Part shown: one piece after another, positions 14,437-35,810 of the stretch
How positions within the stretch are numbered: the first letter of the stretch is position 1
How the letters are laid out: each line of letters begins with the position of its first letter
Source: Octopus sinensis
Taxonomy: Eukaryota
Length of the DNA: 64,000 bases
Direction: 5' to 3'
Assembly: GCF_006345805.1 (NCBI RefSeq)
Contig: NC_043000.1
Coordinates: 48,670,001-48,734,000 of the forward strand
Position numbers and translations under genes: made by a program
Notes under the pieces: generated by a model
What the model saw: the letters and a program-made list of their open reading frames with translations, nothing else
What the model was told of the DNA's origin: nothing
Database searches by the model: none

Positions 14437-14819
14437 TATTGTTATATTTCGGAATGGTAATTTTGTTCTTGCCAAATAAACCCAAGCACTATGTATTCGT
14501 TCTTCCTTCATTTAATAGTGTTCTTACTTTACTTTATGTCTATTTTCTGGACATCTTTCTTCACACACCTTTCCATCCTAATGGACTAATCAGAACAGAA
14601 GGAAATACATGGGATAGGAGAGTCGCTGAAGAGGACACAAGAGGGTGACGAACGATTTCCTGACAAGAGACATAAGATAATAAGAACAATAATAAACGAG
14701 CGGAGAACGAATATACAGTGCGTGTGTTTATTTGGCAAGAAGGAAAATGACCGTCCCGAAGTAAAACAATATCTGTTTCAACCACGATTTCACACCAGGA
14801 ATCTTGCAAAACAAATTCA
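14437..14819 (+). mobile_element. Asymmetric inverted-repeat element, copy 1 (Penelope-like pseudo-LTR architecture suspected)
   Basis: Arms 14437-14570 and 14640-14771 are reverse complements. A right-hand extension at 14773-14819 is shared with copy 2. Hammerhead-like CTGAAGA-G-GACAC..GTGAC-GAAC at 14626-14653. Confidence 0.7.
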
Positions 14820-15118
14820 GAAAACGTTAGTTTCCAATAATTTTCGTCAAATGTATTTTATAGGGATACATATAGTACACCAGCAATATCAAAGTAAACA
14901 TGCAAACCGAGAGGATCATCATATGAATACCTTTGGGAACATAGACGTTTATACCGCAGTCTAATATATTGAAACAATTTAAAGATAAATATATGTAGAG
15001 TTACAACTGTGATGTTGTTGGTAAAACATGTTCTTTGTCTATCTCCTTATCCTGTTGGAGATTTTGGATAAAATTGTACTAATGTGTCCTTCAAATTTAA
15101 TTAAATTCTATGTTTTTC

Positions 15119-15205
15119 TGCAGCTGAAGATTGTTCTACATTTTAAATTGATGTAGTGATTGCATTGTTCAATTAAATGAAGTCGCATGAAACGATCGTA
15201 CTGCA
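15119..15205 (+). ncRNA. Type I hammerhead ribozyme motif with extended helix II
   Basis: Helix I TGCAG/CTGCA is perfect; core CTGAAGA (15124-30) and GAAA (15189-92); palindromic helix III ACGATCGT; cleavage triplet GUA at 15198-15200. The closing pair of helix II is imperfect. Confidence 0.7.
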
Positions 15206-15315
15206 TTACCTCTGGATATCCTTGTTGCTTATTTTGATTATATATATATATATATATATATATATATATATATATACACACACACATGTGCGCACTCACT
15301 CAATCACATATTTAA

Positions 15316-15697
15316 GGACGCATGGACTAGGGGTTAGTGTGTTGCAGTCACGATCAAGAGATCGTGGTTTCAATTCCTACACCAAGTGCTGCCTTTGTTT
15401 CTTCAGTGTCTTTAAAGTATGTCAAAATTAGAGCCAAATACAACGTATGAATGATTATAATCTAAGCCACTTACAACGTTTCAATACATTTATATTTTAT
15501 TATACGCAATTATATATCTTCATGGAAAGAGAAAATAGATTCACTTACATCGATACAAGCGTGATACACCGTGCACCTCTTCAGACAACGTCAATTTGAT
15601 GGAGGGAATGAGTTAATGTGCAGCACGAACATTCGATCACTGTAAACAAATTATTCGTGCAGGTCATTCGGCAGAAGCTGAAGAGTTATACGTCGTC
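15316..15697 (+). mobile_element. Degenerate tRNA-derived SINE (family C), interrupted
   Basis: tRNA-like head GGACGCATGGACTAGGGGTTAG...GGTTTCAATTCC at 15316-15380. A probable 3' part at about 15555-15697 is followed by (CAT)n. Confidence 0.55.
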
Positions 15698-17985
15698 CAT
15701 CATCATCATCATCATATATATATATATATATATATATATAATATATATATATATATATATATATATATATATATATATATATAATATATATATATATACA
15801 CACACACACACACGCATCCACACACTCATACACATATACATACTGAAAATCACGATTTCACGTCCCAATATTAAAAAGAACTTTATATTGTTGGGCATGT
15901 TAGCTATGTCCCAATGAAGTCTATTGATAATGAACAGTAATAGTCATAGAAATTATTTTGGAATTATAGCTTAAAAATAGCCCGTTGTATATACTAAAGG
16001 AAATGTATATCGATGTGAGTGAATCTATTTTCTGTTACCACGAAGATATGTAATTGCGTCTAATAAAATATAAATGTATTGAAACGTTGTAAGTGGGTTA
16101 GATTATAATCATTCCTATGTTTTATTTGGCTCTAATTTTGACATACTTTAAAGATACTTTGGCAATTAAATACAATGCACTTCTTTAATAAGCTAAAACT
16201 AATTTACCTCTAGCACTATTATTTTTTCTTCATTTTGTGTCTCATTCATTTTTCATAATTTTGCTCATATTTTTTCTTTCATTTCTTTCGGCAAATAGAC
16301 AACGTTAATCAGGTTATCTTACAGTTGATCATAAGGCATTTCGGTTAATATTTAATGAATACTGTATACATTTTTAGATTTCAATAAAAAATCAATATTT
16401 TACTTTTTGCCTAAACATATTTTTTAAGACATCCATTTGAGAATTTTTTTATAAATACTTCCTCTTTATTATTTATAATTTTTGCTCTGGAAATACTGTT
16501 TCTTGATTTTTGTTTTTCAAGTTCATAGCAGTAGTTTTAATTCGTGTGCTGCTTTTTGATGCAACTGTAGCGCAAACGATTCTTTCTTTGCTTGTGAACA
16601 AGCGAGAACACCAGTACCACGCATACTCATTCTGATTTTATATCCTGATAATAACGTGATTGTTCAGTTGAGTTTTGTCATTGAAAAGCCGCTCAGGGAA
16701 TCATTATCATCCTACATTCACAATCACATTACAGCTGAATAGATACGTGCTGCTGTCTGACTTGCCATGCCATTACATGGATTTTATGATTCCATCTATT
16801 TTCCTCATTTTCATGGCTTGTGATGTATTGAATAACTTTGATGTTTAAATCAATACAAAACAAAAACTTTCTGCATGCTCTGGTTAGAGAAAAAAGATTT
16901 ACAAGCATCAGATGATACATATCAGCTGGATTACTTTGATGATTGCATGCAAAAATCAAACACATATAATGAATTATCAAATACACCTTCCTTCATTTAT
17001 GCTATACAATGTCAGAACAGCAGAATTTCAAATCAACTCCAATGTATTTAAAACAATTATGTTTCATTTCTATTTACTCCGTTTCTAGGCATTCACATTA
17101 ACCTCGTTGTATTAGTAGTTGCTTGCAAAAAATCCCTCTAAGAAATTATTTTACGCATGATAATTACACCATGTACAAAATATTTTTGTGAAATCTATTA
17201 CATTACAAAAACGCTATTAGAAATCAAATATACGTATTCATATTATCAAACCCATCGCTAAAATTGGGATTAATTTCAAAATAGTCCATTATTAAGTTCT
17301 TTTATTCTCTTAGAATTGTGGTTACTGGTGGAGCTGTTATTTTATTGCTCTTCTGTTACACGATGGATTATCCTATTACTATTTCAGATACGTTCACTAC
17401 TTCATGTTACGCCTTTTGATTCTTTGGAGTAGAGATATTTCTAAAGTTACAAGAAAGCTTCAAAATATTTTCATATGTTATCTATGTGTGTTTATACTCT
17501 TTGCTGATGTGCTTCGTTTTATTCGCATAACTATCACAGAATTTACTGCAAAATTTTGCGAATATTCTTTTACAATATATTATCTCAATATATACATATG
17601 TTATTCTGTTTACATGAGAGTTTGATATAATAACCCTGGCGTTATTTTACGTAGGGGTTTTTAGCGTGAAGTTGAAGATCTACATTTTTGCAGTGAAAAA
17701 CCACACTCTATATATTTTTATTTTGTACTGATATTTAAAGATGAACGTTTGATGTTTCCATTCTGTTTTGTAGTTGGTTAGCATATGAATATGGTAATAT
17801 ACGTTGTCGATGTTATCAAACATACACATATTTATGTATTTAAATATATGTATGTGTGTGTGTTTATGTGTGCATCTGTATATATGTGTGCGATAATTTT
17901 AAACGATGTACTTATATTTCTGTTGAGCGTGCTTAACACAGTATTCCCTCTAGCCACTGTAGCTATCACTAGTATTACGTTAGCT

Positions 17986-33719: not shown

Positions 33720-34105
33720 GCTTTGAAATTTTAGTCGAATGTATCGACCCCAGAACTATTTTTTTTAAATCCTGGTACTTACTCTATCGGACGCTTAGGC
33801 CGAACCGCTATATTACGGGATATAATCACAGCAGCACCGGATATCAAGCGGTGGTGGAGGAACAAATATTGGATCACACACACACACACACACACACACA
33901 CACACACCCAAACACACATTCACACACACACACACACTCACACACACACATATCTACATATGTACGACAGACTTCTTTGAGTTTTCGTCTCCCAAATCCA
34001 CTCATAAAGATTCGTTCGATCTGAGGATATAGTAGATGACAGTTGCCTAAAGTTTCAACGCAGTGGAGTGAATCAGGAACTATGAACTATGTGGTAGGAA
34101 AGCAA
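33720..34105 (-). mobile_element. Family B SINE, diverged
   Basis: ATCGACCCCAG, GCCGAACCGCTA, an expanded CA tract, AAATCCACTCA and CGCAGTGG. Confidence 0.78.
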
Positions 34106-34155
34106 GTATATATATATATATCTGTGTGTGTATATATATATATCCCTATATATAT

Positions 34156-34493
34156 ACTCTTTTATTCTTTTCTCTTTCACTTGTTTCAGTCATTTGACTG
34201 TGGCTATGCTGGAGCACTGCCTTTAGTCAAGCAAACTGACCCCAGGATTTTATTCGTTGTAAGCCTAGTTACGGAGACGTAAACAGCATTGGTTGTCAAG
34301 CGATGTTGGGGGGATAAACGCAGACATACATATATATATATATGACAGGCTTCTTTCAGTTTCCGTCTACCAAATCTACTCACAAGGCTTTGGTCGGCCC
34401 GAGGCTATAGTAGAAGACACTTACTTGCCCAAGTTGCCACGCAGTGGGACTGAACCCAGAACCATGTGGTTCGTAAGCAAGCTACTAACACAC
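34156..34493 (-). mobile_element. Family B SINE with internal deletion
   Basis: CTTGTTTCAGTCATTTGACTG...CAAGGCTTTGGTCGGCCCGAGGCTATAGTAGAAGACAC...GCAAGCTACT. Confidence 0.88.
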
Positions 34494-34574
34494 ACGTATA
34501 TTTATTTATTTATTTATTTATTTATTTATTTATTTATTTATTTATTTATGTGTGTGTAGTTACAGCAACGTAAC

Positions 34575-34745
34575 GACACACGATTTGTTGGCGATTTTGT
34601 ATTCCTTTGACTTTTCCTTTTCTCCGACGAAGCGCTATGTTCGAACTATCTCCTTTTACTGAGTGCCAAACTAATACATTCCTTTTGCACGTCGTCTTTT
34701 TGTCTCTCATTGTTAATTATATTATTCGTCTATTTGAATTGACTA
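34575..34745 (+). mobile_element. Degenerate second copy of the 19795-19990 hammerhead-bearing repeat
   Basis: Contains CCGACGAAGCGCTATGTTCGAAC at 34624-34646 plus the shared flanking motifs. Confidence 0.55.
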
Positions 34746-35810
34746 TACATATGTGTGTGTGTATACATGTATGTATGTATGTATGTACGTATAGTGAAGT
34801 ACACACGCCTCTACTGTATGTCACGGCGGTGAGCTTTTGCTTCAATAAATATAATAGATAAAAAAAAAAACTGGAAGCAAAAGATGAAACTATGTTTCTC
34901 CTTTCAGTATTCTCTCTGTATATAATATTAATCCGTCACGTCTTAAAGAAAACAATGATTTTTCACATGTATATCTATTTTGTTTCGTATAAAATATAGC
35001 TATGTTTGTTGATACGCGAAGATGGAGTTCATTCAAATGTTTCTTTCAAATCCAATTGTATATATAAGAACATACATCATAGGTCATGAAATGCTGGCAG
35101 ATAAACTGTTTTTTAAGGAATCGCTTTACATATGACACGGTAATAAGGTGAGCTGATAAAGGTTTTGGTGCATACCCGATCTAATAAGACTAAAATATTG
35201 GCTATTTCGTTTTTCTGGTGTAGTGCTACCAACACAATATACACGATGTAGACAAAGAATTTAGACTGGGGGGGTCTTGAGAAGACGATTGTATACGAGA
35301 AACTCGCATGGAATCTTTTAGAATCTTTTTTACAGATATTCATTATCAAAGTAATTCTATATGAAATAATTTAGCAGACATAATAAATCCATCACGTATT
35401 TGGGACATGTCAATATATTTGTTCGTTACGTTAGTGTAAACGTATAATAATAGAAATTTATGTTCCTAGAAAGAATATCGCATACGTGAAGGACAAATTG
35501 CGTTCAGTATGACAACTAATGAAATTACTTGATTGTTAAATTTGTAGAATAGTGAATAAATGTCTAATAGAATCTTGATACAGCTCTTTACTTTCTGAAT
35601 TCGGAAGTAGAAAAGTCATCTTTGTCGTTTAGATTTACGTAGACTGGTTAAATAAATAGCGATATTAAAATTTCTGGTTTTGCATGTATTTTGTTTGAGA
35701 TCAACCTATTCTTACGTTTTAAGTTCAATTCCATTCATGTTCGACGTTGAGTTGCACGCCTCCAGAGTTAATTAAAACGTATCACAAATATGGTCTAGTA
35801 ATCGTATTTA

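What the first reader, a model, noticed from the sequence alone, without database searches (positions are those of the whole stretch)
14437..34750. Overall pattern: several unrelated short ribozyme-bearing elements docked upstream of TA-type microsatellites
Seen: hammerhead-like motifs at 14626, 15124, 18258(-), 19077, 19720, 19870, 24492(-) and 34624, from at least four sequence families. Most lie 35-180 nt upstream of a (TA)n or TA/TG tract, and no Penelope RT ORF is present in the window. Inference: a population of non-coding, microsatellite-targeting PLE-derived or retrozyme-like retroelements that may explain part of the (TA)n abundance. If the window is intronic, sense-strand copies could cut the pre-mRNA. 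This is the best candidate for an under-described system here.
Basis: partly seen in the sequence, partly recalled or inferred. Interest (0 to 1): 0.75.

Follow-up and report, generated by a model that had tools for sequence, protein, structure and literature searches.

The report
Penelope transposon ends in TA repeats
Six of the eight listed spots are intact, worn or partial hammerhead-ribozyme motifs in the end pieces of four abundant repeat families whose downstream ends mostly sit in TA repeats; three families are the tails of protein-coding Penelope-type jumping genes and the fourth is likely a non-coding hitch-hiker of the same machinery, so this is mostly known biology.

Summary
Six of 8 sites belong to four multi-copy families (A 19870 and a diverged relative at 34624; B 14626 and 19077; C 15124; E 19720) whose majority sequences form minimal type-I hammerheads. 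18258(-) and 24492(-) are single-copy, lack helices and are unconfirmed. Only 19870 and 15124 keep their family's core; 19720 is half a ribozyme. TA docking is real: in a 1.2-Mb unbiased sample, 19 of 26 family copies end in (TA)n (background 4.6%), and 25 of 32 hammerheads found de novo have (TA)n within 300 nt downstream (background 17%). The 'non-coding system' reading mostly fails: A, B and E continue upstream into Penelope GIY-YIG ORFs, E into an intact 778-aa Hydra-type ORF. C has no ORF over 1.65 kb. Hammerheads in pLTRs and (TA)n bias are published, and this scan found the pattern before elsewhere in this genome. Additions: short A and C copies share a fixed 5' end at an initiator-like TCA, and E docks in TA although it lacks the linker zinc finger proposed to direct that bias. 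The elements front only about 2-3% of TA tracts. No host gene was found, so pre-mRNA cutting is unsupported.

The parts
14437..14570 (-). inverted 5'-truncated piece of family B, head-to-head with the 14619 copy (typical PLE arrangement)
   Evidence: B positions 86-219, 81% identity
14619..14823 (+). family B pLTR piece; hammerhead remnant at 14626 (GAAA changed to GAAC, helix II mismatch); no TA tract at its end
14999..15242 (+). family C short unit: starts at the A of the initiator-like TCAGTT of longer copies; hammerhead 15119-15205 (core 15124, GAAA 15189, palindromic helix III, predicted cut after 15200); ends at the short 3' end
15239..15276 (.). (TA)19 at the 3' end of C
18258..18296 (-). 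unconfirmed motif: CUGAUGA (18289) and GAAA with a possible 6-bp helix I but no helix II or III; single copy; no (TA)5 within 2.4 kb downstream
18701..18805 (-). inverted piece of family B ending in a short (TA)n at B's internal 3' end (position 220)
18804..19281 (+). family B copy including about 260 nt of 3' UTR; hammerhead at 19077 with A6G; full 3' end abutting (TA)n/(GATA)n 19282-19417
19420..19584 (-). inverted 3' tail of family E
   Evidence: 81-90% identity to E copies
19675..19780 (+). family E (Hydra-type) pLTR piece truncated inside loop II: only the 3' half of the hammerhead (GAAA 19720, GUC 19729-19731); ends in a short (TA)n that also forms the 5' flank of A
19787..19990 (+). family A short unit: starts at TTCAAAA; minimal hammerhead 19866-19900 (core CCGACGA = U4C, unpaired A, 4-bp helix II, palindromic AACGUU, predicted cut after 19896); fixed 3' end
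19990..20056 (.). (TA)34 at the 3' end of A, followed by (TG)n
24440..24505 (-). unconfirmed motif: CUGAUGA (24498), weak helix II, GAAA, no helix I or III; single copy; (TA)n 111 nt downstream; possibly an old decayed pLTR
34586..34747 (+). diverged relative of family A (72% identical to a copy in L182); core at 34624, GAAA lost; ends in a mixed TA/TG tract

Best explanation
Six of the eight sites are end pieces of four abundant repeat families with minimal hammerhead motifs whose 3' ends mostly sit in TA repeats; three families are the pseudo-LTRs of protein-coding Penelope-like elements, and all four were likely inserted by Penelope reverse transcriptase-endonuclease proteins. Shown: multi-copy families, the hammerhead consensus, ORF linkage for A, B and E, one or two fixed 3' ends per family, TA adjacency, inverted 5' pieces, and a shared 5' end in short A and C copies. 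Inferred mechanism: an internal Pol II promoter in the pLTR starts the RNA at an initiator-like TCA 50-120 nt upstream of the hammerhead. The element's protein nicks TA-rich DNA and primes reverse transcription at one of two internal sites just downstream of the hammerhead, which gives the optional 'tail'. Priming at the site near the RNA's 5' end would give a complete short cDNA from priming site to cap, the 200-330-nt units; priming at the far pLTR gives the variably truncated long copies. The template is likely uncleaved RNA, and the ribozymes would cut only as dimers or with protein help. Family C is likely a non-coding passenger of the same enzymes.
For: E is linked to intact 778-aa RT+GIY-YIG ORFs with pLTRs at both ends and an inverted copy (L179, L180); 17 of 20 endonuclease-bearing loci carry the E hammerhead downstream. 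B: 5 of 6 loci chosen for the endonuclease end carry B downstream within the stretch fetched, behind a Cx4CxxC linker and YIG motif. A: a Neptune-type endonuclease end lies about 1.2 kb upstream in L304 (E=6e-17), with a shorter match in L312, and a sister hammerhead follows the related ORF family in 10 of 30 loci. 3' ends: 19 of 26 random-sample copies abut (TA)4 against 4.6% background (p=2e-20). De novo: 33 hammerheads in 1.2 Mb against 0 in reversed sequence and 0-3 in 5 shuffles; (TA)5 lies within 300 nt downstream for 25 of 32 against 16.9%. Two 3' ends in B, C and E match the two internal RT start sites of the anole element (PMC11167929). 5' ends: 28 of 30 A loci start within -4..+7 of the A in TTCAAAA and 10 of 20 C loci within -1..+3 of the A in TCAGTT; 6 of 8 random-sample A copies start in a 15-nt span. 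Only 1 of 259 hits (not de-duplicated) starts within 6 nt of a predicted cut site. The lowest-energy dimer of C and of E is the double hammerhead.
Against: No ORF was found for C (1.65-kb consensus, 39-54 stops per frame, best profile hit E=0.36). A's ORF link rests on 2 of 30 loci with 1.5-kb flanks. The transcription start is inferred from copy ends and a recalled initiator consensus: C fits it fully, A and B only in TCA, B's clustering is loose and E shows none. Random-sample C copies do not cluster at the start (0 of 4; 2 of 5 alignments reach it, one of them continuing upstream). For A and B the lowest-energy dimer is not the hammerhead. TA is far more frequent at 3' than at 5' ends (19 vs 4 of 26), which plain insertion into long tracts does not predict. 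Two of the 8 sites are not explained.
Confidence: 0.8

Rival explanations
1. The short A and C units are self-propagating non-autonomous mini-elements: they keep the internal promoter and the priming site, are transcribed on their own and are copied in trans by PLE proteins.
For: Fixed 5' and 3' ends. Short A units far outnumber long ones: 7 of 8 random copies start within 81 nt of the core and the eighth at 94 nt. One allele occurs in 13 of 42 short and 0 of 29 long A copies, and the label clusters on the tree (16 changes against 22.6 shuffled). C is non-coding over 1.65 kb. The D. virilis Penelope promoter is internal (PMC2377424), and pLTRs alone mobilised a gene in trans in a rotifer (PMC3846280).
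Against: The allele contrast is confounded: short copies were fetched by likeness to the window copy, which carries that allele, and only 1 of those 30 loci is long anyway. Long and short copies are interleaved on the tree, with 2 of 68 branches starred. No transcript of a short unit was shown.
Confidence: 0.3
2. The (TA)n tract is not only a target but is made or lengthened at insertion by reiterative copying at the priming site, so PLEs seed microsatellites.
For: 3' bias of TA: 19 vs 4 of 26 random copies, and 18 vs 3 of 28 C hits. All family ends are AT-rich and merge with the tract. PLE RTs are telomerase relatives (PMC8557442).
Against: TA is also enriched on the 5' side (4 of 26, p=0.03; 11 of 32 within 300 nt, p=0.013; 26 of 76 A hits although about 29 continue upstream). 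Different families nest in one tract (E then A at 19775-19790). These elements front only 2-3% of 789 tract clusters.
Confidence: 0.25
3. The motifs are chance matches and TA proximity reflects the high TA density of this genome.
For: 1517 (TA)5 tracts in 1.2 Mb. The bare pattern is expected 3.4 times per window. This probably holds for 18258(-) and possibly for 24492(-).
Against: Families of thousands of copies with conserved helices; 33 real against 0-3 control hits; orientation-specific enrichment, p=5e-14.
Confidence: 0.03

Closest known systems
[quoted passage not shown]
   Same: Short helix I, optional unpaired base before helix II, palindromic helix III, many consensus families per genome, mostly single copies ascribed to truncated PLEs, opposite-strand pairs 100-700 bp apart.
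   Different: Here A and the young E subfamily carry U4C, and C carries U.U at 10.1-11.1. Short A and C copies have a fixed 5' end rather than looking randomly truncated.
Hydra-clade PLEs (Craig et al. 2021, PMC8557442; section 11 and passages read)
   Same: Family E: ORF of about 770 aa, element under 3 kb, DKT motif, C-terminal GIY-YIG without CCHH, CxxC and CxH near the end, hammerhead, insertion into (TA)n.
   Different: E lacks the CxCx5C linker (0 of 20 copies; 40 of 46 homologues matched a CxCx4-7C pattern) and reads RWL for RWK, yet 16 of 20 copies end in (TA)n.
Neptune/Nematis-clade PLEs (as described in PMC8557442)
   Same: The partner ORFs of B and of A's sister family have the Cx2-5CxxC linker and the two Cys and two His of CCHH; microsatellite bias is reported for Neptune.
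   Different: Clade assignment here is by motif only; no RT tree against reference elements was possible.
PAc of the green anole (Frangieh et al. 2024, PMC11167929; parts 1-2 of 4 read)
   Same: Two internal RT start sites giving an optional tail, AT-rich cutting, and a hammerhead that is protein-assisted and not needed for insertion in vitro.
   Different: Poseidon clade, 30-40-nt tail and no microsatellite target; tails here are about 55-155 nt.
Animal non-LTR retrozymes (bioRxiv 10.64898/2026.07.22.740005; part 1 of 5 and passages read)
   Same: Non-coding, type I hammerhead, derived from pLTRs.
   Different: Retrozymes are defined as tandem repeats with a hammerhead in each unit; these are dispersed monomers or inverted pairs, and three of four families have coding masters.

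Membership tests
EN+ Penelope-like element | single ORF with RT and C-terminal GIY-YIG upstream of the pLTR | tested here: met
   E: intact ORF, GIY-YIG Pfam hit E=0.0014, below the curated cut-off, 50 homologues at E<=1e-10; the full ORF had no Pfam hit. B: broken RT end, linker and EN. A: EN end.
EN+ Penelope-like element | ORF upstream of family C | tested here: not met
   1.65-kb majority sequence of up to 8 copies has 39-54 stops in each of 6 frames, longest open stretch 69 aa; sequence further upstream was not traced
EN+ Penelope-like element | pLTR partial tandem and inverted 5'-truncated copy | tested here: met
   L180 pLTR-ORF-pLTR plus inverted copy; inverted B pieces in the window and beside 10 of the 41 best B places
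EN+ Penelope-like element | optional 3' tail (two 3' ends) | tested here: met
   B, C and E show two end clusters; A shows one
minimal type I hammerhead | core, helices I and II, palindromic helix III, NUH site in the family consensus | tested here: met
   A has U4C, C has U.U at 10.1-11.1, B's helix I needs a bulge
minimal type I hammerhead | self-cleavage | not testable with these tools
   needs an in vitro dimer assay; only contig data were available
Hydra clade (family E) | DKT, no CCHH, terminal CxxC and CxH, short ORF, (TA)n insertion | tested here: met
Hydra clade (family E) | CxCx5C linker and RWK motif | tested here: not met
   no linker cysteines in 20 of 20 copies; RWL in place of RWK, which 19 of 50 homologues have. 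E is therefore called Hydra-type, not a full member.
Hydra clade (family E) | RT phylogeny with reference Hydra elements | not tested
   no named reference sequences were held; the homologues are unnamed except one Argonauta protein
non-LTR retrozyme | tandem repeats with a hammerhead in each unit | tested here: not met
   no such array in the window; A copies are single or separated by TA tracts
non-LTR retrozyme | circular RNA | not testable with these tools
   no run on record as RNA and no raw reads

The most novel reading that the evidence does not exclude
Penelope elements make their own SINE-like offspring as a by-product of internal priming. Reverse transcription from the priming site to the cap yields a complete 200-330-nt unit with promoter, hammerhead and priming site, which is then re-transcribed and spreads without its ORF to tens of thousands of copies. 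TA docking is set by the endonuclease or by RNA-DNA pairing at the priming site rather than by the linker zinc finger, as the linker-less family E suggests.
Probability: 0.3. Interest if true: 0.6.

Novelty: new member of a known kind. Interest (0 to 1): 0.33.

Why it matters
The kind is known: hammerheads in pLTRs, many solo copies and (TA)n bias are all published. Two details make open questions testable. First, family E is a young element with intact ORFs that has lost the linker cysteines proposed to direct microsatellite targeting, yet it still ends in (TA)n, which is a natural test of that hypothesis. Second, the fixed 5' ends suggest that solo pLTRs are direct reverse-transcription products rather than random truncations or recombination leftovers, which would link the in vitro internal-priming result to genome patterns. 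About 75,000 intact minimal hammerheads are extrapolated for this genome (33 in 1.2 Mb; 50,000-102,000).

Tried and rejected
Rfam scan: no hammerhead family among 149 matches at E<=5, consistent with minimal variants falling outside the models. Exact repeat finding was swamped by microsatellites. The GIY-YIG remnant upstream of C in L073 is a separate Neptune-type element: 1 of 30 loci of that ORF family has C downstream in sense, and that one is L073 itself. The Hydra-type hits in L070 lie antisense, outside the stretch that L070 shares with other C copies. Expression: no RNA holder was listed; in three runs guessed to be RNA the repeats were covered and the unique stretches were not, which is no evidence either way. 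Empty sites: no joint skipping an element was listed in five DNA-like runs, whose contigs break at the repeats (the joint tables were cut to the best 15 rows). Host gene: 130 ORFs from the window and 90 kb of flanks gave only an RT, two transposase pieces and two below-cut-off hits; exons under 62 codons were not examined, so an intronic location is not excluded. The allele test for independent spread of short A copies is confounded by how the copies were chosen. The alignment mixed families and was uninformative. The Lunse et al. paper on PLE hammerhead variants was not held and was seen only as a citation in PMC6765202, so whether U4C or U.U 10.1-11.1 PLE variants are already described there is open. 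Paper searches for octopus+hammerhead+Penelope, Penelope-like+hammerhead+microsatellite and Penelope-like+solo pLTR listed no description of these families; Repbase and Dfam could not be searched. Supplements of PMC8557442 and PMC4209133 were not opened and may list cephalopod families or linker-less Hydra elements.
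Full report
Setting. The window is G000:C4:48670001-48734000 in a 2.72-Gb animal genome, 33% GC and rich in microsatellites. It looks octopus-like; that label is recalled and is supported only by an Argonauta homologue.

Observation. Each listed coordinate holds hammerhead-like words. Genome searches sort them into four multi-copy families: A (19870; 34624 is a diverged relative), B (14626, 19077), C (15124) and E (19720). 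The two minus-strand sites match only themselves and lack helices. Majority sequences from 30, 24, 20 and 20 loci each form a minimal type I hammerhead with a palindromic helix III, as in PMC4209133 (parts 1-2 of 4 read). A has the core variant U4C (49 of 71 full copies), which PMC3088659 (one passage seen) says lowers activity in vitro but suffices in a viroid. C has U.U at 10.1-11.1. In the window only 19870 and 15124 keep the family core; 19077, 14626 and 34624 are mutated, and 19720 is the 3' half of an E hammerhead cut inside loop II.

TA docking. I fetched 120 stretches of 10 kb at round-number positions on 27 of the largest contigs. A structure descriptor found 33 minimal hammerheads, against 0 in reversed sequence and 1, 0, 0, 0, 3 in five shuffles. 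One was dropped for lying near an edge; 25 of 32 have (TA)5 within 300 nt downstream (background 16.9%, p=5e-14) and 11 of 32 upstream (p=0.013). A few are inverted pairs, so they are not all independent. Family copies in the sample (at least 60 nt and 78% identity) end within 12 nt of (TA)4 in 19 of 26 cases (A 7/8, B 9/13, C 1/3, E 2/2) against 4.6%, and start there in 4 of 26. Extrapolated copy numbers are about 18,000 for A, 30,000 for B, 7,000 for C and 4,500 for E, with wide intervals. Against 789 merged TA-tract clusters, the four families front 19 and intact hammerheads 25. An unrelated SINE-like control repeat has TA at one end in 61 of 158 copies. The docking is real, but it explains a small share of the TA content, and TA ends are not special to these elements.

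Coding partners. E copies run upstream into a GIY-YIG domain. A protein search found 150 scored matches of 15,891 candidates, and L179 and L180 hold open 778-aa RT+EN frames, L180 as pLTR-ORF-pLTR with an inverted copy. Its motifs fit the Hydra clade of PMC8557442 (section 11 read), where almost all families insert in (TA)n. However, the CxCx5C linker is absent in 20 of 20 copies, while 40 of 46 homologues matched a CxCx4-7C pattern; of the six misses, three look like mis-anchored matches and three have spacing variants. Still, 16 of 20 E copies end in (TA)n. The same paper proposes that the linker mediates the bias but already notes that Chlamys elements lack it, so E is a further counter-example, not the first. 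B runs upstream through about 700 nt of UTR into a broken ORF with a Cx4CxxC linker and YIG motif. A runs through a CA-rich UTR of about 1.2 kb into a Neptune-type EN end in 2 of 30 loci, and the related ORF family carries a sister hammerhead. The Neptune and Nematis labels are motif-based. C extends at least 1.65 kb upstream with no open frame in the majority sequence, so it is a candidate non-autonomous element, though sequence further upstream was not traced.

Ends. B, C and E have two 3' ends and A has one. This matches the two internal RT start sites and optional tail shown for the anole element, whose hammerhead is protein-assisted and dispensable for insertion in vitro (PMC11167929, parts 1-2 of 4 read). 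Only 1 of 259 hits starts at a predicted cut site, so the template is likely uncleaved. Short copies do not look randomly truncated: 28 of 30 A loci start within -4..+7 of the A in TTCAAAA, and 10 of 20 C loci within -1..+3 of the A in TCAGTT, 60 nt beyond the query's own start. The A query began at that site, so only the lack of further extension is informative there, but 6 of 8 random-sample copies agree. TCAGTT fits the initiator consensus as I recall it; the D. virilis Penelope has an internal promoter (PMC2377424, passages seen) and a rotifer pLTR has an Inr-like motif (PMC3846280, passages seen, which ascribe solo pLTRs to recombination or deletion). B clusters loosely near a TCA, E does not cluster, and the few random C copies do not show the cluster clearly. 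I infer that short units are complete cDNAs from the first priming site to the cap. Whether they then spread by themselves is open: the allele and tree signals are confounded by ascertainment.

Host gene. No exon was recognised in 154 kb, and no run on record as RNA was offered. With most window copies damaged and such ribozymes reported to be inactive as monomers (PMC4209133), cutting of a pre-mRNA is unsupported.

Prior knowledge. Hammerheads in pLTRs, their many solo copies, (TA)n bias in Hydra, Naiad and Neptune elements, and retrozymes as pLTR derivatives (bioRxiv 2026.07.22.740005, part 1 of 5 and passages seen) are in print. An octopus repeat annotation lists 31 recently active Penelope-like families and does not mention hammerheads (PMC13282606, passages seen). 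Earlier notes of this scan report the same zoo in other windows of this genome; look-ups for the linker loss and for family C returned nothing.

Verdict. The pattern is real and consists of new members of a known kind, with two modest, testable additions: fixed 5' ends and a linker-less TA-docking family. Interest 0.33.

Noticed in passing
L180:6690-6790 and L158-L177: The youngest E subfamily with intact ORFs carries a more deviant hammerhead (U4C; in some copies also C11.1 to U and a GUA site) than the older subfamily, and family A also has U4C; recent spread seems not to need a canonical core.
   Followed up: partly
L189:3031-3395 (about 7 kb upstream of the window): Remnant of another Hydra-type endonuclease that keeps its CxCx5C linker.
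   Followed up: partly
L107:6584, L239:2529, L202: Hammerheads with a U3-A8 core pair, the variant reported from Schistosoma PLEs, among the de novo hits.
   Followed up: no
L259-L287 and random sample (L129, L133, L212, L232, L245, L249, L255, L257): An abundant sister family of A, behind Neptune-type ORFs, has U or C at core position 6; it makes up 9 of the 33 de novo hits.
   Followed up: partly
window 19603-19650: A short piece resembling B's 3' UTR sits between the inverted E tail and the E piece; 18700-20060 is a nest of B, E and A insertions.
   Followed up: no
window 15405-15555 and 16008-16158: 151-nt inverted repeats, 93% complementary, around a TA tract; possibly a non-autonomous DNA transposon.
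   Followed up: no
window 6869-8916, 12223-12555 (-): Broken LINE-type RT and endonuclease pieces; 11145-11387(-) gave a below-cut-off hit to Pfam L_protein_N (E=4e-5), probably a LINE endonuclease piece.
   Followed up: no
window 54544-55374 (-): Broken Tc1/mariner-type transposase (HTH_Tnp_Tc3_2 and DDE_3 hits below cut-off).
   Followed up: no
window 28590-28727: Near-perfect palindrome of about 140 nt made of mixed microsatellite arms.
   Followed up: no
L325 (G000:C15:29497001-29503000): 1.9-kb tandem duplication (99% identity) containing a long family C copy with nested SINE-like insertions.
   Followed up: partly
window 34345-34490 and 158 hits in the random sample: An abundant SINE-like repeat has (TA)4 at one end in 61 of 158 copies and none at the other.
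   Followed up: partly
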